From the NCBI GenBank assembly GCA_900128395.1, contig LT649326.1, positions 1 to 37,397 of the forward strand: 37,397 nt of DNA, given 5' to 3'. The translations under genes and the position numbers were made by a program. Source of the stretch: Stramenopiles sp. TOSAG23-2. Taxonomy: Eukaryota. Numbering within the stretch: position 1 is the stretch's first letter; each line of letters begins with the position of its first letter. The notes beneath the pieces were generated by a model, which saw only the letters and a program-made list of their open reading frames with translations, was not told the DNA's origin and did not search any database. Below, one piece after another: positions 1,291 through 25,586 of this stretch.

Positions 1291-4200
1291 ATGGCGGATG
1301 AGAAAAGAAAAACATCTAGCAGTGCTTCAGTACAAGTTGCAGTACGAATGCGATGTTTTATACATGCATATGAAATTGATAAAAAAACGGGTGTTCCACA
1401 CCCACATGTGAAAAAAATAGTACATATGGATCCACCATCAACGGTAATTACACATCCAGACACAGGGAAGGAGCATACGTTTACATACGATTATAGTTAT
1501 GATTCCTCTGATCCTAAATCAGATAACTATGCATCACAAGAAACGGTTTGGAATGATTTAGGTACAGTTGTATTGGATAACGCGTGGGATGGATATAACG
1601 TTACTTTATTTGCATATGGTCAAACTGGTTCTGGTAAAAGTTATTCAATGACTGGTGGGAATACACCAGATTCGGCAGGTATCATGCCACGTGCTACACG
1701 TGAAATTTTCCGTCGTATAAGCGAAAACAAAGATCCAGAGTTGACATATTCCGTTGAAGTCTCTATGTTGGAAGTTTATATGGAAAAAATACATGATTTA
1801 TTTGATCCAAAAAATGGTGGTAAAAATGGCTTGAAACTACGTGAAAATCCGAATATAGGTGTATACGTTCAAGGTTTAGAAGCAAGATTGGTTAAAAGTT
1901 ACGATGAGATAACAAATTGGATGGAAATAGGTATATCCAATCGTACAAAAGCGTCTACTCAAATGAATGCAGATAGTTCACGTGCACATACTTTATTAGA
2001 AGTTACGGTGAAACAAACACGTTGTAAAAAAGGTGAGAAAAAAGGTCAAGTGAAAAAAAGTAAAATTAATTTAGTGGATCTTGCCGGTAGCGAACGTTTA
2101 AATAAAACAGGTGCATCTGGGAAAACGATGAAAGAGGGACAAAAAATTAATTTATCCTTAACTACATTAGGACGTGTTATTACCCAATTAGCTATAAATT
2201 CAGATGAAACAAAAAAAGCTAGTCCAGTACCATATCGTGAAAGTAAATTAACATATTTATTGAAAAATTCTTTAGGTGGGAATAGTAAAACAATTATGAT
2301 AGCAGCGCTTGCGCCTAGTAATGTAAATTACGATGAAACACTTGGTACGTTGCGTTATGCATCACGTGCGAAAAAGATTAAAAATAAAGCTGTTGTTAAT
2401 GAAGATAGTACGACTAAATTGGTAAATAATTTAAAAGCTGAAATTGATGCATTAAAAGCACAATTAATGGGAGGTAATAATAATAATAATAATAATAATA
2501 ATGGTGGTGGTGGTGGTAAAAATGCTGATGAAGAGCGTAAAAAATGGGATGAAGAGAGAGAGGCATTGTTAGCGAAATTGAAGGAAAGTGAACAATTAGC
2601 ACAACGTGCTTCTATGACAGATGATGAGAGAGCAAAAGAAACTGCATTAGCTGCACAAGATCAAGGCATGGCGGAATTAGTTGCACAACGAGAAAAAGCA
2701 AAGAATACACCATGTTTATTGAATTTAAGTGAAGATCCGCAGATGGATGGTCGAATTATACATTTCTTAGAATATAAAAAAGATATATCATTTGGACGTA
2801 AAGATGCAAATCCACAACCAGATATTATTTTAGCCGGTTTAAATATTGCAAAGTTGCAATGCATTATACATTGTGGAAAAAATGCTAAAGCTGGGTTTAA
2901 AATTTCTAATCCTAATGGATCGAAAACGTATGTAAATGGTATACCAGTGAAAAAAGGTGCAAACGTCGATTTGAAGCCACATGATCGTATTATATTTGGT
3001 AGTAGTAATATATATCGAATACAAATACCTGGTTCATTGTTAAAAAGTAAATTAGGAAGACCGGAACATGTTACATGGACCCATGCCATTGAGGAATTGA
3101 ATCAAGGTCAAATGGCCGCATTTTCCGAGCAACATCGAGCAGAACGAGAAGAAGCAGAGCGAATGAGGAAAGAAATGGAAACGAAATTGAGGGAGATGGA
3201 ACAGATGATAAACCAAGAACGGCAAAAGGGTGGTACGTAATCAATAACCAACCGTGAACCAACTTGCACCGTGTTTGTGAAGCTACCAACCTGCACCGTC
3301 TACAACTAATCTTGCACCAGCTTCTTGACACTCACACAACCAACCTGCACCGTGTTTGTGAAGCAACCAACCTGCACCGTCTACCACTAATCTTGCCCAG
3401 CTATATATATATATACATACTACATCATAAATATATATTTTTTTTTTTTGCTCCACCAATATATATGCTTCCAACCTCCCCGTATCACTCCACCAACCTC
3501 AGGCAGGTCGTATCGCTACCAACCTCAGGCAGGACTAACACATTATAATCCATCTATCTATATTTTATACAGGTACTCGAGCCGCTGAATTAGAGGCACA
3601 ATTGGAGGAGCAACGCGAAAGGGCAGAACGATTGCAGCGTAGAAAAGCAAAGGAAGCACAGCAAGGTACTCGAGCCGCTGAATTAGAGGCACAATTGGAG
3701 GAGCAACGCGAAAGGGCAGAACGATTGCAGCGTAGAAAAGCAAAGGAAGCACAGCAACGATCGTTGATGGATCAACAATTGTTAAAAGCAATTGGTATGG
3801 TAGAAGAAGCAAATTCAATAGCACTTGAATTGGACCAAGGCATGTGCTTTAGTATTAAATTACGCGTGAACCAATCGCAAGCTGTTAGGGAAGCTACGGA
3901 GGATGATTTCGTAGCTGAAAAAGAAGTACATATTAAAGTAGATTATGATAAAGTAAATGTGCCATCTGCCATGTGGGAATATGAATCAAAATTTGTCAAT
4001 CGTCTATATTCAATGCGCGAATTGTATCAAGATTATGTCGATGTTGGTCGTAACTTATCAATGATTATGGACAATCTTCCAGTAGAAGACAACCCATTTA
4101 TTGATGATGCGACAGATCAATCCATTGGCAAAGCATTGATATATTTAGAACCATTAATGTACTTAATGGATGTTGAGGAACGCACATCGATTTATGATTT

Positions 4201-8438: not shown

Positions 8439-8825
8439 TACCAAAAAGCATCAAATTTTTAAATATCTACAATTACATAAATTTCAGATGGTGCACCTGC
8501 TCTTTCTTGTATTTTTGCTTTGACTTTTCCATTCATTTCCTCCTCCTCATTCGTCTTCTTATTATTATCAGATGATGTATTCAATAGTACATGATTTGAA
8601 TAAATTTGCATATGGCTATATGTAATCGCTTTACCAAAAAGCATCAAATTTTTAAATATCTACAATTACATAAATTTCAGATGGTGCACCTGCTCTTTCT
8701 TGTATTTTTGCTTTGACTTTTCCATTCATTTCCTCCTCCTCATTCGTCTTCTTATTATTATCAGATGATGTATTCAATAGTACATGATTTGAATAAATTT
8801 GCATATGGCTATATGTAATCGCTTT
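8439..8825. repeat. Perfect 193-bp tandem duplication of the archease 3' end and stop region
   Basis: TACCAAAAAGCATCAAATTTTTAAATATC...GTAATCGCTTT occurs at 8439 and 8632. This explains the spurious 62-aa ORF 8459..8647. Confidence 0.95.
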
Positions 8826-9377
8826 CACTTCCGTGCCAACTGGTGCGTGTTTTTTTACATCAAACAATTCTCCATAACCAATTGCTTCTATATTAAATGA
8901 TTTTATATCCAATTTTGTAATGCATATATGATTGCATACAATACCTTCTCCAGAAAATAGATACAAAAATTCATTTAGATAGTTATAAAGTAAGGATAAA
9001 ATATCATGTCCCGAAGCTGTTATTTTGTATTCATTTGTTAATTCTACATTATCTAAAGTTGTTTCATATGCAAACATAGCTATGGCAACTTGCTCAAAGG
9101 ATTCTATTAAATGTTCGCCCCAAGCATGCAGTTGTACATCTGCTGGATGATCATTTGTATATTCAAACTTTGGGGAGAAGTAGGATGAGCCACCTTGTAT
9201 ATTTGTAATTAAATTATTATTATTATTATTATTATCATCTTGCTCTTCTGTTTTCAATTTTTTATCATTATTACTATCATCATTACCTTTGGTATCATTT
9301 TCTATTTGTTCTCCTTCTCTTCTTCTTCGCCTTCTTCGTGTATTATGGCGTTGTGGCAATGGGAAATTGTTCGACAT
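8652..9377 (-). CDS. Archease (activator of the RtcB tRNA ligase)
   Basis: DHPADVQLHAWG, GHD..SLLYNYLNEFLYLF and GTEVKAITYSHMQI motifs; C-terminal YVIVDI. Confidence 0.93.
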   Translation of the reverse strand: MSNNFPLPQRHNTRRRRRRREGEQIENDTKGNDDSNNDKKLKTEEQDDNNNNNNNLITNIQGGSSYFSPKFEYTNDHPADVQLHAWGEHLIESFEQVAIAMFAYETTLDNVELTNEYKITASGHDILSLLYNYLNEFLYLFSGEGIVCNHICITKLDIKSFNIEAIGYGELFDVKKHAPVGTEVKAITYSHMQIYSNHVLLNTSSDNNKKTNEEEEMNGKVKAKIQERAGAPSEIYVIVDI

Positions 9378-9537
9378 TATCTTTTACACTTTTTTATTTA
9401 CAATTTGTTTATTTGTTGTTTTATTTTTTGTTTTTCTGGTATCATGGCGTTGTGGCAATGGGAAATTGTTCGACATGTTCTTTTACACTTTTTTATTTAC
9501 AATTTGTTTATTTGTTGTTTTATTTTTTGTTTTTCTG
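9340..9537. repeat. Imperfect 99-bp tandem duplication spanning the archease start codon and 5' leader
   Basis: Copies at 9340 and 9439 differ at about 3 positions (GTATTATGG vs GTATCATGG; CATTATC vs CATGTTC). Confidence 0.92.
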
Positions 9538-9769: not shown

Positions 9770-12013
9770 TTAATAATTAGCACCCCATTCTTCATCACCA
9801 TAATCAACTTTATCCCCACTACCACTACCACTACCATTCTCTAAATCATCTTCTTCACTTGATGGTTCATCCTTATACTTTCCAAATTTACTAGTAGCAC
9901 TCATTCCACCACCACGATAGCCACCTGTATAATCGCTGCGCCTATTATGATCAAAGCTATCTGTACCAAATTTACTAGTAGCACTCATTCCACCACCACG
10001 ATAGCCACCTGTATAATCGCTGCGCCTATTATGATCAAAGCTATCTGTATTTAAACTACGTGTATCAAAACCATCTTTGGTTTGGCGATTATTTCTATTA
10101 TTACGACGACCGCCAATTGAATTTTTAATAATACGATCACGACCAGAATTACGATCATCGCCACCAAAATCATTATCTGTATCATCGTCGCTACTTCCAA
10201 ATAAATAACCACCTGATTCTCCATTACTTCTTCTAGTCGTGCGCATATCTCCACGTGCATTTAAACTTATTCCAATATCTTCATCATCTTCAAAGTCTGT
10301 TGTTAAAAAATTTGGTGATTTTTTACCACACATACCATTACAGGTAAGACTTACGATAAAAATTAATACAAAGAACCATGACGAGGCGAAAAATACATGA
10401 GAAAATATTGGATATATTTTAACCATTTGGATCAACAACAACGCAACTTGTGACATTGTACAATGCTTCATGCCTTTACCAATGTTGACACCTTTTTCGT
10501 TCAATACAATACCTTCAAGATCATTTTCCAAAGTGCATCGTTTAACTTTCACAGTACCTTTTGCACCTGGTACTGCCATATCATCACTAAAGTGCTGTGG
10601 ACCAAAGGTAGTGTATTGTGGAGCAATGGAACCAAGTTGCACAATAATTGCCAGGCTTATAAACATAAAAATAGCACTTAAGACTAAAACAGCAGTGCCA
10701 CTTGATTGTTTCTTACGATAGCTGTATACTGAGCAACATAGACAACGTATACCCATTCTAGTCAAACCGACGAAAGATGCCAACGCTAAATAAATTAAGC
10801 ATATACCAAGCAAAACTAAATCTAATGGGAAAGAACTTGCTAAATCTACTAATAAATGATCCAATGGGTTATACATACGTTTTTTATGCACTAAGGTTCC
10901 TAAATATCCTGTATTCATCGCACATAAAATACCATTTGGATCATCTAAACATGCTTTTGGCACATGACCTTTCCCATTTGCCTGTTGCCCTTTCGTTGTT
11001 GCTTTGCTATTTTTATTACCACCTGGATGACCCATTGCTTTCAAGTCATTGCTGCTAACACCACTGCCTAATCCGGTATCATTCGCACTTAAAAGTAAGG
11101 CGGATGTAATTAAAATCGATACCAATAATAAAAACATACCTAATATCACTTTTGAACGTTTACCACATCCGTTTAATGCCCCGTACCCACCCCCAAATGT
11201 ACTTGCATCTTGTAAATCTTGCAATGCTTGCGTATGCCTTTTTAATGCATGGGATTTACGCTTCAATTTAATTGCACTTGCTTTTTCATATTCGCTAGTA
11301 TAACTTGATGATTTGCGTTTCATTTCAAGTGTTCTTTCCCTTGATTTAATTTTCAACAATTTAGTTTCTATTTCTAAACGCTCTTCTTCTAATGAACGGT
11401 AGCCTCTAATCAAATTCAATGGAATCACTGCAAGTCCATACGCAGTAAATGTCATCCATGCGCATACACCCGCACTGGATAACATCCCTACTACAAATAA
11501 CATAGCAGATGCACCTGCATGTTTTGTATCAAATAATTTATTTGCCCAATGTTGTGTATCAGCTTCTTTCGCCCATTTTGTATGGCCAGGTCGAAATGCA
11601 AGACCAAGTAAAAATGCTGTTAACAAACCAGCAGCAAATATCGTCGTCCGTTTCATTGCACTAGCAAAACGTTGGCAACAACCTATTTCATTTGAATTTT
11701 GACGGTAAAAAAATATAGTAAATGGAATCACAATACCAATATACCCTGCTATCGTCGAAAATATAGTGTAATATAATTGTTTCACATTATCTGACGCAGT
11801 TTTATATTGACTAGTGGAAACATGCGTCGCTACGTATAAATCAAACGGTGGCATGGCACAACACGCAAAAGCAACGATCAAAGATGTTGTTGCAGTAAAC
11901 ACAACAAATGGATGCTTTTCTGGTCCATCTTTTAGAAAGTATTGTACCGTTTGGTATGAAACAAAAATAATTATTAAAAAAATTACAATAACTGATACGG
12001 AAAAGATTAGCAT
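9770..12013 (-). CDS. LMBR1-family multi-pass membrane protein, LMBRD1-like (lysosomal cobalamin export escort)
   Basis: Many hydrophobic helices; TAYGLAVIPLNLIRG, NPLD...FPLD and APQYTTFG.Q motifs resemble LMBRD1. Long acidic, Gly-rich C-tail. Confidence 0.8.
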   Translation of the reverse strand: MLIFSVSVIVIFLIIIFVSYQTVQYFLKDGPEKHPFVVFTATTSLIVAFACCAMPPFDLYVATHVSTSQYKTASDNVKQLYYTIFSTIAGYIGIVIPFTIFFYRQNSNEIGCCQRFASAMKRTTIFAAGLLTAFLLGLAFRPGHTKWAKEADTQHWANKLFDTKHAGASAMLFVVGMLSSAGVCAWMTFTAYGLAVIPLNLIRGYRSLEEERLEIETKLLKIKSRERTLEMKRKSSSYTSEYEKASAIKLKRKSHALKRHTQALQDLQDASTFGGGYGALNGCGKRSKVILGMFLLLVSILITSALLLSANDTGLGSGVSSNDLKAMGHPGGNKNSKATTKGQQANGKGHVPKACLDDPNGILCAMNTGYLGTLVHKKRMYNPLDHLLVDLASSFPLDLVLLGICLIYLALASFVGLTRMGIRCLCCSVYSYRKKQSSGTAVLVLSAIFMFISLAIIVQLGSIAPQYTTFGPQHFSDDMAVPGAKGTVKVKRCTLENDLEGIVLNEKGVNIGKGMKHCTMSQVALLLIQMVKIYPIFSHVFFASSWFFVLIFIVSLTCNGMCGKKSPNFLTTDFEDDEDIGISLNARGDMRTTRRSNGESGGYLFGSSDDDTDNDFGGDDRNSGRDRIIKNSIGGRRNNRNNRQTKDGFDTRSLNTDSFDHNRRSDYTGGYRGGGMSATSKFGTDSFDHNRRSDYTGGYRGGGMSATSKFGKYKDEPSSEEDDLENGSGSGSGDKVDYGDEEWGANY
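9882..10049. repeat. Perfect in-frame 84-bp tandem duplication (28 aa)
   Basis: TDSFDHNRRSDYTGGYRGGGMSATSKFG occurs twice; DNA copies at 9882 and 9966. Confidence 0.95.
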
Positions 12014-20587: not shown

Positions 20588-22267
20588 ATGAATAACAATC
20601 CAATAATCATCAACAAAATACCATCTACATTATTTCAACAATTATTATCTGCAACATCAACGGTTGAACGTCAAGTAATATTAAAAAAATACAACGAGTT
20701 ATCATTATCAACACCAACAACATTAACAGAAATTACCCAATCAAAATATTTAAAATGGATGGACGATTTCATAGAATCAATGAATTCAGAAAATTTAAAT
20801 AAAATTGAAACATTATTAAAAACATTTAAAGATAATAGCAATGATGATGATAATAATAATAATAATAATACCACGTTGATGAATGCTGAAAATATACCAA
20901 AATATTTAATTGAAACAAAATTATTATCAGAAGAAAATAAAGATAAATTTTATAGTTTACTTGTATCTAGTTTTGAAAGACGTCAACATCAAATCGAATC
21001 ACTTTATATTGAAGTTGAAAATCAATTAAATTTATGGTTATCATTATGTAAAGAAAATGAAACATTATCATTTTTACTAAAAACTGCTTCAAAAAATAGT
21101 ATAAATAAATTGATTCAATTGATACAAGATAAAATTACGTCCTCCAATAATAATAATAATAATAATAATAACGATGATGATGTATTAAACGAAATCAAAG
21201 AAGAGGAAGAGCTGCAACAACAAGATACGGATATTATTATATATGATTTAATTAAAAATCATGGTGAAAAATATCAATTTTTAATTTATCACATCAATAT
21301 ATTAACATCTATATGCAACATGTATGTACAAATTCAAAATTATGATAAATCAATTGTATTGAAAATTAATGATATTTTACAAATATATCAAGACAAATTA
21401 ATTGAGAACCGTATGCTACACATGAATAATCTTGTCATTCAATCGATTTTATCGGAAGAATGGAGTCATTTTAAAGATCCAAGGGATAAATTTAAACGTT
21501 ATTCAAATGGTTTGGCAATGTATATTGTGCATATGTCTACATTATGCAATGAATTGAATGATTTGAAGGTATATTCCAATATTTTTATTCAGATTTTTGA
21601 AGCTACGTTTCATAAATTGACATTATTATATGTTCATTTAGTAAATGTTGTAAATCGTGCACGTGTAGTTCAATATCGTGTAGATATTTTATCCTTAATT
21701 TCAATTGGTTTGCATTTTTTATATAGTGATTATGGTTGCTCAATAACTAATAATATTAATAAAATGTTGAATAAATTAATGATAACATTAACATTATTTG
21801 TTGGTCCCGTTGAACCAATTATACAATATTTAAAATCAAAACCTAATAGTAACGACACAAATGTTACTGATGATAATAATGACATTAGCTTTTTACAACA
21901 AAATGATTTCAATAATATATTTGATATTGAATATATATCGATGGATCAACGATTCCAAAATAGACGAAATAGTAATCCTATTCAACTTGTACAAACAATA
22001 TTTTCCAAAGGTAAAAAAATAAAATTGGAAAATATAATGGAAACAATTGATTTAAATCATTCATTATGGTCAAAAACATTAATAGCTGCTATGGAACATA
22101 CGAGTGATAATTATATTAATCTTAGCAAGGCGGACAGCATCTTAATTGTTTCACGTAGGCATGAATTACAAGATATTGAATATCCACCTATGACAAAAGA
22201 TGATGAAATAGTGAAAAAAAAATTAGAGATGTATTTTAAAAGTATTGGTAATAATCAGACGATCTAA
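20588..22267 (+). CDS. Alpha-helical hypothetical protein, possibly KIAA0825/DUF4495-like
   Basis: 559-aa ORF. The segment QSILSEEWSHFKD...KRYSNGLAMY...LTLLY...RARVVQYRVDILSLI resembles my recollection of the DUF4495 core; the family call is tentative. Confidence 0.7.
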   Translation: MNNNPIIINKIPSTLFQQLLSATSTVERQVILKKYNELSLSTPTTLTEITQSKYLKWMDDFIESMNSENLNKIETLLKTFKDNSNDDDNNNNNNTTLMNAENIPKYLIETKLLSEENKDKFYSLLVSSFERRQHQIESLYIEVENQLNLWLSLCKENETLSFLLKTASKNSINKLIQLIQDKITSSNNNNNNNNNDDDVLNEIKEEEELQQQDTDIIIYDLIKNHGEKYQFLIYHINILTSICNMYVQIQNYDKSIVLKINDILQIYQDKLIENRMLHMNNLVIQSILSEEWSHFKDPRDKFKRYSNGLAMYIVHMSTLCNELNDLKVYSNIFIQIFEATFHKLTLLYVHLVNVVNRARVVQYRVDILSLISIGLHFLYSDYGCSITNNINKMLNKLMITLTLFVGPVEPIIQYLKSKPNSNDTNVTDDNNDISFLQQNDFNNIFDIEYISMDQRFQNRRNSNPIQLVQTIFSKGKKIKLENIMETIDLNHSLWSKTLIAAMEHTSDNYINLSKADSILIVSRRHELQDIEYPPMTKDDEIVKKKLEMYFKSIGNNQTI

Positions 22268-22477
22268 AATAGATACGAACGTATACGTATTATTATAATT
22301 AATTTGGGTGGCTCAGTCACTGTATGTACTCTTTTGAGAGTAGGAATTGTCATGTGAGTAGAAATAAAAAATAAAATTATATAGCGTATATATACACACA
22401 TTTTTTTAAAAAATATTGTACGTATCATACAAAATATACATTCCACACTATGTACACACGCACACATATTTAAATTA

Positions 22478-23011
22478 TTACCCGCCCTCATCATCACTTC
22501 TTGGTTTTTGTGTTAATTTTTCTTTTACATTTTTTTCTTGTTGTTGTTGTATTTTTAATTTTTTTTCTAATTCTTCATCAATAATTTTAAATGTATCTTT
22601 TGCCATAACAAATGCATACGATAACCCAGCACCAATAATAGAGCCCTGTAACGCAACTGCTGGGCCGCCTCTTAATGAAAACAACAAACCAGTTATACCA
22701 CCTGATGTAATTTTATTTACCACATTATCAGGTTTATTATTACGTATATATTCTAATCCAAAATCAAGTGCAAGATAAGTTGTTAAAAATGCAGAGATCT
22801 TAATACCTCCTAAACAACTTTTACTAGCCATACGCATTAACCGTTCATTTCGAATGGCTTTACTATTTGGTGGCTTTTGTATATTCAATTCAGCATTCTC
22901 ACGCAAAGCTGTAAATCCATAAATCATACTACCAAATACCATGCTACCAGCAACAAGTGCTTTCCATTCAGCAATTCTTGAATCTTTCACTTCTTTATCA
23001 AATATTTTCAT
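22478..23011 (-). CDS. Tim17/Tim22/Tim23-family membrane protein
   Basis: Four hydrophobic segments; LEYIRNNKPDNVVNKITSGGITGLLFSLRGG fits the R...D..N...[AS]G..TG family pattern. Confidence 0.75.
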   Translation of the reverse strand: MKIFDKEVKDSRIAEWKALVAGSMVFGSMIYGFTALRENAELNIQKPPNSKAIRNERLMRMASKSCLGGIKISAFLTTYLALDFGLEYIRNNKPDNVVNKITSGGITGLLFSLRGGPAVALQGSIIGAGLSYAFVMAKDTFKIIDEELEKKLKIQQQQEKNVKEKLTQKPRSDDEGG

Positions 23012-23351
23012 TTTATAACAAAAAACGTTTTATTATAATATCACCCGTATCGTATATGATAGCCTTATTAAATTAAAGGGTTACAACGCCAATATCATAA
23101 GTAGATCCCTATCTATGTACAGTATATGTTGATATAGATAAAATGAATATTTGGAGATGTATTTGGAGGTTGGCCTGTGGTTGATAATCAAAGTTGAGTT
23201 GATTATGTCGAAGAATGTTGATTTGTCGATTAGAATCTAATAAATGTTCGATTTATGTTTAGTGTTGCCAGTTTACCTTAAAATAATTCCAAAAATGTAT
23301 ATATAACAAAAGTATACACTGTGAAGCGGGTTCCTCTGATCAACGGAGTTC

Positions 23352-23789
23352 ATGATGAACCAATATGATGGAGCATCAGCAACATCTATTCTAACAACAC
23401 CATTTAAAGAATCCATGTAGTTTCTACTTTCTATATCATTATGATGGTATGATATAATTATCGAAAAATGTAAATAATTTTTTTATTGTTTTTACTTCAA
23501 TGAACCAAGTGTAACATCATTTATAATACAGACTATATATATTGGATTGTATGGCATATCATCAATATTGCAAGTGTTTCAAGCTCAAGTAGATGGTTCA
23601 TTGAGTACATCTGCGCAATGGATTCTTTTAGCAGGATCTTTTGCTGGCGTAATATTTTTTATCATGACAAAAAATTTTATGTTACTTTTACCACCATTAA
23701 TGAATATACTGTATTGTTTTTTATTACTTTGGGGAATATATTGTAATGAGAATGAAAATATTCAATGTTTGTTGCCTAATTTTTTTTAA
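23352..23789 (+). pseudogene. Possible decayed gene for a small membrane protein
   Basis: One frame from ATG 23352 reads protein-like through stops at 23418, 23442 and 23475 into the hydrophobic 80-aa ORF (WILLAGSFAGVIFFIM...LYCFLLLWGIY). Confidence 0.3.
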
Positions 23790-24091
23790 CCTAATAAAAG
23801 TGGAAATTTTTATTTATTTTATTTTTTTGACGAAACAGAATTCAAAAGAGATAAAATGGAATATTTATGACATTGTATTTTTTATTATATGATATATTCA
23901 TCTAAAAGTTTATTTTAAAAAGTGGAAATTTATTACTTTTATATCTGAAAATATATTTTATTCTATGTAAAGATTATGACATATTTAGTACGAATGAGTA
24001 TGCTAAGTATAATATTTGTTAAACAAACGTCATTTTCCTATATGTGCAAAATAATCGGTAAAAAAATAGCAGGTAAATATGCCCAAAATAA

Positions 24092-24265
24092 AATGCCACA
24101 CCAAGTGTAATTTTTGATAACACTGTGTACATGCTAAAATAAAAATCAATCAAAAAACTCGACTGGAAACCCCATTTCCAAGGTCTGTAAAAAAAAGTTT
24201 GAAAAAAAAAAATAGACTTGTGCCAAAACACGACTGGAAACCCCATTCCCAGTCGTGTTTTGAAG

Positions 24266-24307
<42 letters not shown>

Positions 24308-24403
24308 CTAGACTGGAAACCATGTTTACAGTCGTATTTTTCATCCTTAAATATTATTTAGGCTTACACATCATCTTTTAATTATTACACTTGGTGTGGC
24401 ATT
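24092..24403. mobile_element. 312-bp segment bounded by perfect 20-bp inverted repeats (MITE/HINE-like non-autonomous element candidate)
   Basis: AATGCCACACCAAGTGTAAT (24092-24111) and ATTACACTTGGTGTGGCATT (24384-24403). No target-site duplication is evident. Confidence 0.5.
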
Positions 24404-24562
24404 CGGTTTTTTCATTTTTTTAGCATAATCATACCATGAAAAATCCAGAATCAAGTTTTAGATACTATTTTTATGCTAATATAATTTTAAGTATTTTTTG
24501 ATGGATTTTCACCAATTTTCAAGCAAAACTCGACTGGAAACCCCATTCCCAGTCGAGTTTTG
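24154..24562. repeat. Four copies of a GACTGGAAACC hairpin motif
   Basis: Copies at about 24154 (partial), 24224-24262 (14-bp perfect stem), about 24300-24340 (bulged stem) and 24524-24562 (14-bp perfect stem). Confidence 0.9.
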
Positions 24563-24683
24563 TTCTACTCTGATTTATTTAGTAAGACATTATCATTGAC
24601 AGCAATTAAAAAAAGTGTGACATTTAAAGAAAAAAATAAGCATAAAATGTCATACTCTTTTCCTTCTTTATTTACTTTTTTAA

Positions 24684-24908
24684 ATTATCCTTAAGAGGAT
24701 CAAAGATTTGTATGAATATGCTGAGAAAAAATTAAACAGTTCTGAAAAAAAAGAAATAGATAGGCTGAAACTACATTTGCAAGATTCATTAAAAGGATTA
24801 CAATCTTTACAAAAGACATATGAAGACGATGTCACATTGAAAGCAAGAATAGATTGTCTCATAGACTATGTAAACACTCTTTTAGAAACAGAGAGTATTA
24901 ATAAATAA
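24684..24908 (+). pseudogene. 5'-truncated gene fragment resembling the C-terminal half of a conserved giant-virus (Nucleocytoviricota) hypothetical protein
   Basis: The frame has no ATG. LKLHLQDSLKGLQSLQKTYEDDVTLKARIDCLID matches, from memory, the L.GL..L..TY..D......ID.+I pattern of a Mimiviridae/Phycodnaviridae family. Confidence 0.5.
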
Positions 24909-24954
24909 AAAAACCAAAATATTAAATAAAAAATATTATATAATTTTTTTTTGT

Positions 24955-25125
24955 CTGATCCCCCCACCAAATTTTCAACCATGGATGAAGGATCAAAATT
25001 TAAAAACAAGCAGCAATCGAAATAGCAACAAAGCATCAAATCTTATTGTAGCAAAAAAGAAAAAGTCCAGTGGATGGGGTGCGTTAAAATCGTTATTTAG
25101 AAATAATAAAAAAAAGAAGAAATAA
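24955..25125 (+). pseudogene. Orphan 3' coding end of a host-like gene
   Basis: The frame reads LIPPPNFQPWMKDQNLKTSSNRNSNKASNLIVAKKKKSSGWGALKSLFRNNKKKKK* and is followed by a CpG-rich spacer like the other convergent 3' regions. Confidence 0.4.
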
Positions 25126-25586
25126 AAAAGAATATTAGGAAACTCGCAGTCATATTTCATACAAATGTAATGCATACGCGTATTTTTATATATATATTAT
25201 ATTGAGGAACAAGGGAGAGCGAAGAGCGAGGGAAAAGGACTCAGGGGGTGAGTTTAAGAGTGTTAATATTGTGACACAATTTAAAAAATATTATTTAAAC
25301 ACACCTCAGAGTTTTAATTGAGAGTATTTTTTTTTTGGAGAGTGGAGAGTCGTATTCAGTAATAAAGAATTTTATCAAATGAGTTACCGATTCGCGTATT
25401 TAAAAAATTTAAAATAAAGGCGCGCAAGAAAAAATATTTTTTGTGATTTCCAGTTATAAAAAATAAAATATTTTACACGAAAGCACTAAAAATATGATAT
25501 CATACGAACGCGAATTATATAATATTATATATCACCGCCGCGCGCGTGTATTTTTACTTTTCATCCCTCTCTCTTTCCCCCTTTGT

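What the first reader, a model, noticed from the sequence alone, without database searches (positions are those of the whole stretch)
24224..24562. Repeated 39-nt hairpin with a compensatory base-pair change, one copy followed by A38
Seen: CAAAACACGACTGG-AAACCCCATTC-CCAGTCGTGTTTTG (24224-24262) and CAAAACTCGACTGG-AAACCCCATTC-CCAGTCGAGTTTTG (24524-24562) lie exactly 300 bp apart. The A-T pair becomes T-A on both arms while the loop is invariant. A third variant keeps pairing (GACTG/CAGTC, AAAC/GTTT). An A38 run (24266-24303) follows the first full copy. Known: Mimiviridae transcripts are polyadenylated at hairpins, and HUH enzymes recognise stem-loops. Inference: a structure-selected cis signal (viral 3'-end signal, nicking/replication site or REP-like element) that I cannot assign to a known family.
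Basis: partly seen in the sequence, partly recalled or inferred. Interest (0 to 1): 0.72.

Follow-up and report, generated by a model that had tools for sequence, protein, structure and literature searches.

The report
Hairpin repeats inside a giant-virus-derived insert
Two perfect 39-base hairpins and two worn copies form a strictly local repeat cluster inside a stretch of giant-virus DNA in a marine protist's chromosome; they look like repair or replication by-products rather than a working signal.

Summary
There are two 39-nt hairpins with one swapped A-T/T-A pair and an identical loop, 300 bp apart, and an A38 run 3 nt after the first. There are also two degenerate copies. The window is cellular eukaryotic DNA (kinesin, CCT, RPS6e, Tim17), not a virus.

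The cluster lies in an AT-rich, lineage-specific segment of about 1.46 kb (23503-24959). This segment holds the 3' halves of two giant-virus genes and a piece of a viral intergenic repeat. One piece (24691-24959) is 97% identical to a giant-virus-like contig.

Three hairpin copies separated by A-tracts sit at the centre of a roughly 313-bp imperfect palindrome. The fourth copy lies 183 bp away. I found no further copy in the other 37 kb, in related viral contigs, or in three public collections. Covariation over four copies is not significant. The related virus contig shows no hairpins at its gene ends.

Best reading (0.45): a local DNA-level palindromic repeat in a decaying viral insertion, whose arms are kept complementary by arm-to-arm templating. 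Rivals are a viral cis element carried in with the DNA, a retroposed hairpin RNA with a poly(A) tail, and a dispersed mobile element. The host genome could not be searched.

The parts
24224..24262 (+). c1: intact 39-nt hairpin (14-bp stem, 11-nt loop; A-T at stem position 7), near the centre of the long palindrome
24524..24562 (+). c3: intact 39-nt hairpin (T-A at stem position 7). Its flanks are unrelated to those of c1. It is confirmed in a second sample.
   Evidence: (X2 record 12)
24153..24203 (+). c0: degenerate copy. The 5' arm and loop match c3 at 26 of 27 positions; the 3' arm is broken by +AG, -G and a 9-nt A-rich insertion. A11 and TAGACT follow it.
24298..24341 (+). c2: degenerate copy. 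Outer stem AAAAATAC/GTATTTTT, 4-nt bulge, GACTG/CAGTC, and a loop changed to a better palindrome (AAAC CAT GTTT).
24266..24303 (+). A38 homopolymer, 3 nt after c1. Its last bases form the outer stem of c2.
24202..24218 (+). Left copy of the direct repeat A11-TAGACT. Its partner is 24293-24309, A11-TACACT (16 of 17); alternatively TAGACT 24213-24218 matches 24309-24314 (6 of 6). The pair brackets c1 plus the A-run.
   Evidence: (D5)
24091..24404 (.). Imperfect palindrome of about 313 bp. The outer arms 24092-24111 and 24384-24403 are perfect (20 of 20). The arms 24091-24152 and 24342-24404 are identical in 45 of 65 columns. c0 lies 41 nt inside the left arm end, c2 lies 42 nt inside the right arm end, and c1 lies 112 and 121 nt from the arm ends.
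23503..24959 (.). Lineage-specific, AT-rich segment (25.7% GC against 30-31% in the flanks) that holds the cluster. A relative's contigs leave the window at 23502 and 24960.
23505..23789 (+). 5'-truncated copy (C-terminal roughly 90 aa plus stop) of a 190-206 aa membrane-protein family found in giant-virus-like contigs. The N-terminal 99 residues are absent from the window.
24590..24640 (+). Stretch of about 50 nt homologous to the core of an intergenic repeat of the virus-like contigs (G001 C4, C76, C72)
24691..24959 (+). 3' half of a conserved giant-virus gene of about 120 aa, plus 51 nt downstream. It is 97% identical over 269 nt to contig G001:C84 (L015). The N-terminal 57-69 codons are absent from the window.

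Best explanation
The hairpins are a four-copy, strictly local family of a 39-nt palindromic repeat. It lies in the AT-rich middle of an insertion of giant-virus DNA pieces, about 1.46 kb long, in the nuclear genome of a marine protist.

Shown:
- The host context is cellular.
- The segment is absent, or replaced, in a close relative.
- Two 5'-truncated viral gene copies and a piece of a viral intergenic repeat flank the cluster.
- Three hairpin copies separated by A-tracts occupy the centre of a roughly 313-bp imperfect palindrome, and the fourth copy lies 183 bp to the right.
- No other copy is found anywhere I could search.

Inferred mechanism:
- The copies arose at the DNA level during replication or break repair in a decaying insertion, by local copying of the hairpin alone or of a hairpin plus A-tract unit.
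- The two arms of a palindrome can template each other through strand switching or snap-back synthesis. A change or copying error in one arm is therefore transferred to the other arm in a single event. This yields the 'compensatory' A-T to T-A swap, and the improved loop palindrome of c2, without selection for structure.
- The A-tract grew by slippage.

On this reading the element has no function in the host. Whether the first copy came in with the viral DNA or formed afterwards is open.
For: - Cellular context: kinesin, CCT, RPS6e, Tim17, MT-A70 and others.
- Local only: four copies within 24153-24562, all on the + strand. None is found elsewhere by pattern or by covariance model with filters off (next best E 0.61).
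- No copy in viral contigs, genome contigs or metagenome contigs. None in virus-like genome G001 (best E 0.39), 10 viral loci (best E 0.043) or 5 whole viral records (best E 0.07).
- Mosaic insertion: 24691-24959 is 97% identical to L015. The N-terminal halves of both gene families are missing from the whole window. A viral-repeat piece scores 57, with 0 of 200 shuffles reaching it.
- The segment is more AT-rich than its flanks.
- Other local duplications occur in the same segment (D6, D3, D8).
- c0 and c1 share not only the hairpin but also TTTG + A-run + TA(G/C)ACT, which indicates unit duplication.
- c2's loop differs from c1's at several adjacent positions, and these changes together make it a better palindrome. 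That is the pattern of a single templated event.
- c0 aligns best with T at position 7 and T at its partner, a mismatched intermediate (alignment; my reading).
- The palindrome symmetry is 41/42 and 112/121 nt.
- Covariation is not significant.
Against: - c1 and c3 share an identical 11-nt loop while their flanks are unrelated. Arm-to-arm templating cannot preserve a loop, so a recent copy event limited exactly to the hairpin is needed. That fits a discrete mobile or RNA-borne unit at least as well.
- The pure A38 bracketed by a 16-of-17 direct repeat looks like a retrocopy tail.
- G-U pairs that extend the stem only on the - strand, and G-U to A-U / U-G to C-G changes between c1 and c2 on that strand, are what RNA-level constraint would give.
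- The host genome was not searchable, so 'local only' holds for 37 kb plus foreign collections, not for the genome.
- A relative's run has a contig that matches the window from 24511 onward with unlike DNA before it. This could be a second locus.
Confidence: 0.45

Rival explanations
1. The hairpins and the long palindrome are a cis element of the donor giant virus, carried into the host with the viral DNA and now decaying. Candidates are a transcript 3'-end hairpin, an origin-like palindrome, or a duplex copy of a hairpin genome end (concatemer-junction type).
For: - The cluster lies between viral pieces on both sides.
- X2 record 12 joins c3 to the viral gene fragment in one contig.
- Mimiviridae use structure-defined hairpins for 3'-end formation (PMC4402537 passages), so pairing-preserving change would be expected.
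- The palindrome has perfect outer arms and an imperfect AT-rich centre. From memory, this recalls poxvirus concatemer junctions.
- A relative virus contig encodes a Pox_A22-type resolvase (L010).
Against: - No copy in G001 (1.5 Mb), in 10 viral loci or in 5 viral records of 80-179 kb.
- The 23-mer and a loop-free pattern give 0 family hits in IMG/VR.
- The 14 ORF ends of the 97%-related contig have no unusually stable hairpins (z from -1.9 to +1.2).
- The hairpins are 364 nt or more downstream of the only viral stop codon to their left.
- In Mimiviridae the hairpins are not sequence-conserved and poly(A) starts inside the hairpin.
- The spacers between c0, c1 and c2 are A-rich on both sides, so they are not mirror images.
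Confidence: 0.22
2. c1 (and earlier c0) are retrocopies of a short, hairpin-ended, polyadenylated RNA, either a small RNA or the extreme 3' end of a longer transcript. They were inserted by target-primed reverse transcription into an A-rich site. c3 or an unseen copy is the source.
For: - A pure A38 starts 3 nt after a complete hairpin and is the only run above 12 in the window.
- An imperfect direct repeat, A11TAGACT / A11TACACT (16 of 17), brackets c1 plus the tail. It is the only such pair in the window.
- c0 is also followed by an A-rich tract.
- Insertion into an older copy's A-tail is typical of such elements (recalled).
- All copies share one orientation.
Against: - c3 has no A-tail and no flanking repeat.
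- c1 differs from c3 by the swapped pair, so c3 is not its direct source.
- The unit would be only 39-47 nt long.
- The repeat is mostly homopolymer, and TAGACT also resembles a hairpin 5' arm.
- No reverse transcriptase is found among the 42 window ORFs scanned.
- The two viral gene fragments are 5'-truncated but the right one ends without poly(A) and continues as viral genomic DNA does.
Confidence: 0.13
3. The 39-mer is a small mobile palindromic element (MITE-, REP- or HUH-substrate-like) that is dispersed in the host genome. It happened to land several times in this insertion.
For: - Similarity between c1 and c3 stops exactly at the hairpin base, with the loop identical.
- The clustering resembles REP arrays (recalled).
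- A contig of a relative (X7) matches from 24511 onward with unrelated sequence before it. That sequence is absent from the window.
- Two metagenome contigs leave the window at 24156, the 5' edge of c0 (agreement 0.63, weak).
Against: - 0 copies in the remaining 37 kb.
- No target duplication or terminal inverted repeat beyond the hairpin itself at c1 or c3 (my reading).
- No transposase, HUH or Rep gene in the window.
- No predicted protein shares three 5-residue words with the ORF read through c3.
Confidence: 0.12
4. Part of the structure (c0, c1, A38, c2, or the right junction of the insert) is an amplification or assembly artefact of a single-cell-type assembly.
For: - The window holds perfect tandem duplications of 84-193 bp that could be assembly artefacts.
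- X2's contig leaves the window after 24959 (record 13).
Against: - c1 differs from c3 at two positions and the palindrome arms are only 69% alike, whereas chimeras would be identical copies.
- c3 and the left breakpoint of the viral fragment are confirmed in X2.
- The left flank and the first 634 nt of the insert are covered by X2 contigs with 0 differences (records 9 and 11).
Confidence: 0.04

Closest known systems
Quasipalindrome / template-switch mutation (strand switching within inverted repeats; recalled from the literature, not read here)
   Same: Clustered or paired changes that make or keep a palindrome perfect in one event. The swapped pair in c1/c3 and the multi-base loop change in c2 fit this pattern.
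   Different: It does not explain how a discrete 39-nt unit with an identical loop came to lie at two places with unrelated flanks.
Mimiviridae 'hairpin rule' for transcript 3' ends (PMC4402537, passages seen; Byrne et al. 2009 not held)
   Same: A hairpin-forming palindrome in AT-rich, giant-virus-related DNA, with an A-run beside one copy.
   Different: - In Mimiviridae the hairpins are not conserved in sequence, lie just after genes, and are cleaved and adenylated inside the hairpin.
- Here the copies share sequence and are not next to a stop codon.
- A38 follows the whole hairpin and is encoded in DNA.
- The related virus contig shows no such hairpins.
Endogenous giant-virus fragments in protist and algal genomes
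   Same: Truncated viral genes flanked by host genes, AT-skewed, and lineage-specific.
   Different: This one is very small (about 1.5 kb) and is a mosaic of two gene halves that lie 17 kb apart in a related viral record. Its centre is a palindrome.
Bacterial REP/BIME and eukaryotic MITE or foldback elements
   Same: Short extragenic palindromes, clustered, with pairing kept.
   Different: No dispersal is seen, there are no target duplications, and there is no cognate transposase. The host is a eukaryote.
LINE-mediated retrocopies (A-tail plus target duplication; recalled)
   Same: A pure A-run, flanking direct repeats, and an A-rich target.
   Different: The unit is only 39-47 nt. One intact copy has no tail, and no reverse transcriptase is seen in the window.
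Poxvirus-type hairpin telomere / concatemer junction (recalled)
   Same: An imperfect AT-rich palindrome flanked by perfect inverted repeats. A relative virus contig encodes an A22-type resolvase.
   Different: The central spacers are not mirror images. There is no evidence that this virus clade has hairpin ends, and no copy is found in viral contigs.

Membership tests
Mimiviridae-type 3'-end hairpin signal | Lies directly downstream of the stop codon of a viral gene | tested here: not met
   The nearest viral stop to the left is at 23787-23789, and c0 starts at 24153. c3 lies upstream of the truncated gene at 24691.
Mimiviridae-type 3'-end hairpin signal | Defined by structure, not conserved in sequence between genes | tested here: not met
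   c1 and c3 are identical at 37 of 39 positions, with identical loops. The defining feature is taken from PMC4402537.
Mimiviridae-type 3'-end hairpin signal | Poly(A) is added at a cut inside the hairpin and is not template-encoded | tested here: not met
   A38 is in the DNA and starts 3 nt after the complete hairpin. The feature is taken from PMC4402537.
Mimiviridae-type 3'-end hairpin signal | The virus lineage shows stable hairpins after most genes | tested here: not met
   In L021, 14 ORF ends gave best energies of -1.6 to -8.2 kcal/mol and z from -1.91 to +1.16. The sample is small and the shuffles were simple.
Dispersed palindromic repeat (REP/MITE-like) | Many copies at unrelated loci | tested here: inconclusive
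   0 copies in the other 37 kb and 0 in three collections. The host genome is not held.
Dispersed palindromic repeat (REP/MITE-like) | Target-site duplication or terminal inverted repeats at the ends | tested here: not met
   The flanks of c1 (TGTGC / AAG) and c3 (TCAAG / TTC) share nothing.
Dispersed palindromic repeat (REP/MITE-like) | Cognate transposase or HUH enzyme in the genome | not testable with these tools
   None among the window ORFs. The genome is not available.
LINE-type retrocopy | 3' A-tail | tested here: met
   A38 follows c1, and an A8...A11 tract follows c0.
LINE-type retrocopy | Flanking target-site duplication | tested here: inconclusive
   A 16-of-17 direct repeat brackets c1 plus the tail, but 11 of the 17 positions are A. 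There is none at c3.
LINE-type retrocopy | Reverse transcriptase source in the genome | not testable with these tools
   None in the window.
Endogenous giant-virus element (the surrounding segment) | Sequence derived from giant-virus genes | tested here: met
   - 269 nt are 97% identical to G001:C84.
- That contig is 91% coding and carries an AEP_C962R domain.
- Homologues lie in IMG/VR contigs of 80-179 kb next to an M16 peptidase, with Pox_A22 in one locus and VLTF3 in another.
- The second family is found in G001:C76 and in viral record G004.
Endogenous giant-virus element (the surrounding segment) | Embedded between host genes and variable among relatives | tested here: met
   Tim17 lies to the left and a cytidylyltransferase to the right. 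The relative X7 joins 23340 to 24960 through 898 other letters (shorter side 30 letters, so it is borderline).
Any Rfam family | Match at the gathering score | tested here: not met
   Only a tRNA at 820-892 reaches the gathering score. Around the hairpins every hit is far below it.

The most novel reading that the evidence does not exclude
The roughly 313-bp imperfect palindrome with the hairpins at its centre is a duplex copy of the hairpin end (a concatemer-junction-like form) of the donor giant virus, captured in the host chromosome. If so, it would be the first view of the genome-end structure of an uncultured marine giant-virus lineage, and the pairing-preserving changes would reflect constraint on a telomere hairpin.
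Probability: 0.08. Interest if true: 0.75.

Novelty: new member of a known kind. Interest (0 to 1): 0.42.

Why it matters
As a cis signal the hairpin has little support, so its own weight is modest. It is a worked example of how a 'compensatory' pair in a DNA palindrome can mislead.

The surroundings matter more. A 269-nt stretch 97% identical to a giant-virus-like contig, plus a second truncated viral gene, sit between housekeeping genes of an uncultured marine protist. That is a direct, sequence-level host-virus link for organisms known only from single cells and metagenomes.

It also flags a public bacterial genome bin that holds giant-virus-like contigs. If the palindrome proves to be viral, it would bear on how such viruses end or replicate their genomes.

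Tried and rejected
- **Giant-virus window:** rejected. The genes are cellular.
- **General hairpin rule in this window:** rejected. Hairpins are not found at other gene ends.
- **Helitron 3' end, Tc1/Stowaway/other MITE ends, HUH or CRESS origin loop:** no CTRR end, target duplication or nonanucleotide at c1 or c3, and no Rep gene (my reading).
- **ORF 20588-22267 as a tyrosine recombinase:** the Pfam hit is below cut-off. An atlas lead points to exocyst/COG-type proteins instead.
- **A spliced gene model placing c3 in an exon (24501-24581 joined to 24696):** dropped. Homologues are unspliced proteins of about 120 aa whose N-terminus is not in the window.
- **Templated copies of nearby host sequence in the insert:** matches are no better than shuffles.
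- **Capsid search in G001 and three viral records:** no match, and the control was silent, so it is uninformative.
- **The search for related loci with the single 103-aa ORF:** one low-complexity hit only. With the profile A4 in viral contigs there were none, although genome search found the family in G001 and G004.
- **Protein-word search through c3:** nothing. 'Longer' relatives of the 103-aa ORF: none.
- **Read-laying, parts without cover (no conclusion drawn from any of these):**
  - No contig of X2, X3, X7 or X15 covers 24238-24351. The tool also skipped 24255-24318 as a repeat.
  - X2 has nothing on 24136-24425 or on 24960-25020.
  - The RNA run X15 has nothing on 23098-24807 except one low-complexity bin.
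- **The two loose-end consensus strings:** not in the window.
- **Literature:**
  - 'MAST-4' + 'single-cell genom' + 'hairpin': 0 papers.
  - 'palindromic' + 'miniature inverted-repeat' + 'stramenopile': 2 papers, listing seen only.
  - I found no description of this repeat, and these are the only searches behind that statement.

Full report
**Observation**

- c1 (24224-24262) and c3 (24524-24562) are 39-nt hairpins with a 14-bp stem and the loop AAACCCCATTC. They start 300 bp apart and differ only by A>T at stem position 7 and T>A at its partner.
- A38 occupies 24266-24303.
- The 23-nt core occurs twice, and 0 of 100 shuffles gave two matches.
- The folds are far more stable than shuffles (-20.7 and -20.9 kcal/mol, 0 of 200 shuffles; as DNA: -14.5 and -14.2).
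- On the - strand the RNA stem extends to 18 pairs through two G-U pairs (-25.0 and -25.2).
- Two worn copies exist. c2 (24298-24341) keeps an 8-bp outer stem of different sequence plus GACTG/CAGTC and AAAC/GTTT, with a 4-nt bulge. c0 (24153-24203) has a 3' arm that carries indels.
- By my own arithmetic, two differences in 39 nt land on one pair and restore it about 0.6% of the time. The coupling is therefore real, and the open question is its cause.

**What the window is**

The long ORFs encode kinesin, a CCT subunit, LMBR1, MT-A70, ribosomal protein S6e, Tim17, a PP1-type phosphatase, a PX-kinase and similar proteins. There is one tRNA and no other Rfam match. GC is 32%. This is nuclear DNA of an AT-rich, intron-poor eukaryote. 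Runs labelled marine or seawater metagenome hold about a third to a half of its words. No whole genome is held for it.

**How far the family reaches**

Within the window there are four copies, all on the + strand and all between 24153 and 24562.
- GACTGGAAACC with up to one mismatch finds these four plus two one-mismatch sites without a palindromic partner.
- A covariance model built from the four copies, run with filters off, finds nothing else. The next best hit has E 0.61.

Outside the window I found no family member:
- the 23-mer has 0 hits in viral contigs and in genome contigs;
- an arm-only pattern gives one GC-rich chance hit in viral contigs;
- the 19-mer core gives four unrelated hits in metagenome contigs.

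The pair-count test on four copies has no power: 223 of 500 shuffles reach the observed count. Stable hairpins are not a general feature of this window's gene ends.

**Local anatomy**

The cluster is not a simple pair.
- A perfect 20-bp inverted repeat (24092-24111 and 24384-24403) bounds an imperfect palindrome of about 313 bp. Its arms are identical in 45 of 65 columns, and 0 of 500 shuffles score as well.
- c0 starts 41 nt inside the left arm end and c2 ends 42 nt inside the right one. c1 sits 112 and 121 nt from the two arm ends.
- Between the hairpins both spacers are A-rich, so the centre is a direct array (hairpin, A-run, hairpin, A-run, hairpin) rather than a mirror image.
- c0 and c1 share the hairpin and also TTTG + A-run + TA(G/C)ACT.
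- c1 plus A38 is bracketed by A11TAGACT and A11TACACT (16 of 17). This is the only such pair in the window, and A38 is the only A/T run above 12.
- c3 shares nothing with the others beyond the 39 nt.

**The unexpected context**

*The right-hand viral gene fragment.* The ORF at 24684-24908 is the C-terminal half of a small protein of about 120 aa with 33 homologues (alignment A3). Their well-conserved N-terminal 57-69 residues have no counterpart anywhere in the window.

The family lies in giant-virus contigs:
- six IMG/VR contigs of 80-179 kb at 49-55% identity, and three more distant ones, one of them named as a giant-virus bin;
- in four of the loci scanned the gene lies next to or near an M16 peptidase (L006, L011, L015), with dUTPase and PLD genes, a Pox_A22 resolvase in L010 and VLTF3 in L012.

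An 18.3-kb contig filed under a bacterial genome bin (L015/L021 = G001:C84) has these properties:
- 32% GC and 91% coding;
- an AEP_C962R primase domain;
- the same M16 neighbour.

It carries the intact gene. Window 24691-24959 is 97% identical to it over 269 nt, from mid-gene to 51 nt past the stop. Nothing else of the window matches it.

*The left-hand viral gene fragment.* The ORF at 23478-23786 matches only residues 100-188 of a 189-206 aa membrane-protein family. That family has a full-length member in G001:C76 (E 1e-70; 45% identity) and one in viral record G004, which also holds the small gene 17 kb away.

*The viral repeat piece.* Window 24590-24640 aligns to the core of a repeat of at least 424 nt shared by G001 contigs C4 and C76, with a 49-nt core in C72 (score 57, 0 of 200 shuffles).

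*Summary of the segment.* Segment 23503-24959 has 25.7% GC against 30-31% beside it. I read it as a small, rearranged endogenous giant-virus fragment. The hairpin cluster lies between its recognisable pieces.

**Evidence from other runs**

- A second sample of the same organism (X2) has contigs identical to the window over 22300-24135. One contig (24426-24749) carries c3 and crosses the left breakpoint of the viral gene fragment.
- Another X2 contig matches 24729-24959 and then runs on for 321 letters that are not in the laid stretch. The right junction is therefore not independently confirmed, and the viral piece may have a second context in that sample.
- A close relative (X7; 13 differences in 840 nt of the Tim17 region) joins 23340 to 24960 through 898 other letters, with a shorter side of 30 letters. 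Another of its contigs follows the window to 23502 and then departs, which is where the first viral fragment begins.
- X7 also has a contig that matches from 24511 onward with unlike DNA before it, and that DNA is not in the window. This may be another hairpin locus or a rearranged orthologue; I could not tell.

**Testing the viral-signal idea**

Passages of Priet et al. 2015 (PMC4402537) state that the Mimiviridae hairpin signal is not conserved in sequence and that cleavage and polyadenylation occur within the hairpin. Byrne et al. 2009 is not held.

The present case differs:
- the copies share sequence;
- they lie 364 nt or more from the nearest viral stop codon on their left;
- A38 is encoded in the DNA after a complete hairpin.

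The 14 ORF ends of the 97%-related contig show no unusual hairpins. Model R1 finds nothing in G001, in 10 viral loci or in 5 whole viral records. The viral context is real, but the signal reading is not supported by what could be tested.

**Reading**

I favour, at 0.45, a DNA-level origin. In a decaying, AT-rich insertion that shows other local duplications (D3, D6, D8), hairpin units or hairpin-plus-A-tract units were copied locally.

Because palindrome arms can template each other, single events produce paired changes. These would be the A-T/T-A swap, and in c2 a run of loop changes that perfect the palindrome. c0, read by its best alignment, has T opposite T at the swapped pair, which is a possible intermediate.

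What this reading explains poorly is the identical 11-nt loop of c1 and c3 with unrelated flanks, and the retrocopy-like look of c1 + A38. I therefore keep three live rivals:
- a viral cis element carried in with the DNA (0.22);
- a retroposed hairpin RNA (0.13);
- a dispersed mobile palindrome (0.12).

An artefact seems unlikely (0.04), because the copies and the palindrome arms differ from one another.

**Limits**

- Only one read-laying run was allowed.
- bioRxiv and other supplementary files were not consulted.
- Statements about template switching, LINE retrocopies, REP/MITE features and poxvirus telomeres are recalled knowledge, not results of calls.

Noticed in passing
window 3571-3757, 8439-8825, 9882-10049 (100% identical) and 9340-9537 (96%): Tandem duplications of 93, 193, 84 and 99 bp, several of them inside long ORFs (kinesin tail, archease region, LMBR1). 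They are either very recent in-frame duplications or assembly/amplification artefacts.
   Followed up: no
G001 (genome bin reached through L015): contigs C84, C76, C4, C72: A genome bin titled as a Legionellales bacterium holds giant-virus-like contigs. They are 91% coding, carry an AEP_C962R primase domain and viral-family genes, and share an intergenic repeat of at least 424 nt. This looks like mis-binning.
   Followed up: partly
L015 2529-2948; L006-L011 about 3001-3340; window 24691-24908: A conserved giant-virus protein of about 120 aa with no Pfam family (motifs WVNLK, RWW, SDF.RIKDLY, LQKTYE.D.T.KARID). It usually lies near an M16 peptidase gene, and 33 clusters were found.
   Followed up: partly
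L018 1300-1760; L027 2081-2507 (- strand); G001:C72:6607-6655; window 24590-24640: An intergenic repeat in the virus-like contigs, with a core of about 50 nt (ATTGTCAGCA ... AAAGTGTGACATTT). The core recurs in a third contig and in the window's insert. TGACAT-type motifs occur four times in the insert (23866, 23975, 24616, 24647 on the - strand).
   Followed up: partly
window 23796-23944: A diverged direct repeat of about 122 bp period (AAAAGTGGAAATTT...; 78% over 27 nt) in the AT-rich part of the insert, downstream of the first viral gene fragment.
   Followed up: no
window 25526-25531: In the relative X7, one contig leaves the window after 25531 and another enters at 25526, with unrelated letters outside. 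This suggests an insertion or rearrangement at a TATATA site in that organism, but low complexity makes the overlap uncertain.
   Followed up: no
window 24926-24959 with 25499-25532: A 34-nt inverted repeat (76% complementary) whose arms end at the same two places where the relatives' contigs break (24959/24960 and 25531/25532).
   Followed up: no
window 23100-23420, - strand: A probable small host gene in two ORF pieces (MDSLNGVVRIDVADAPSYWF...) between Tim17 and the insert. It has no Pfam match and is conserved in the relative X7.
   Followed up: no
window 20588-22267: A 559-aa ORF with N-rich runs. A weak integrase hit lies below cut-off, and a language-model lead points to exocyst/COG-type tethering subunits. 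It is probably a host gene.
   Followed up: partly
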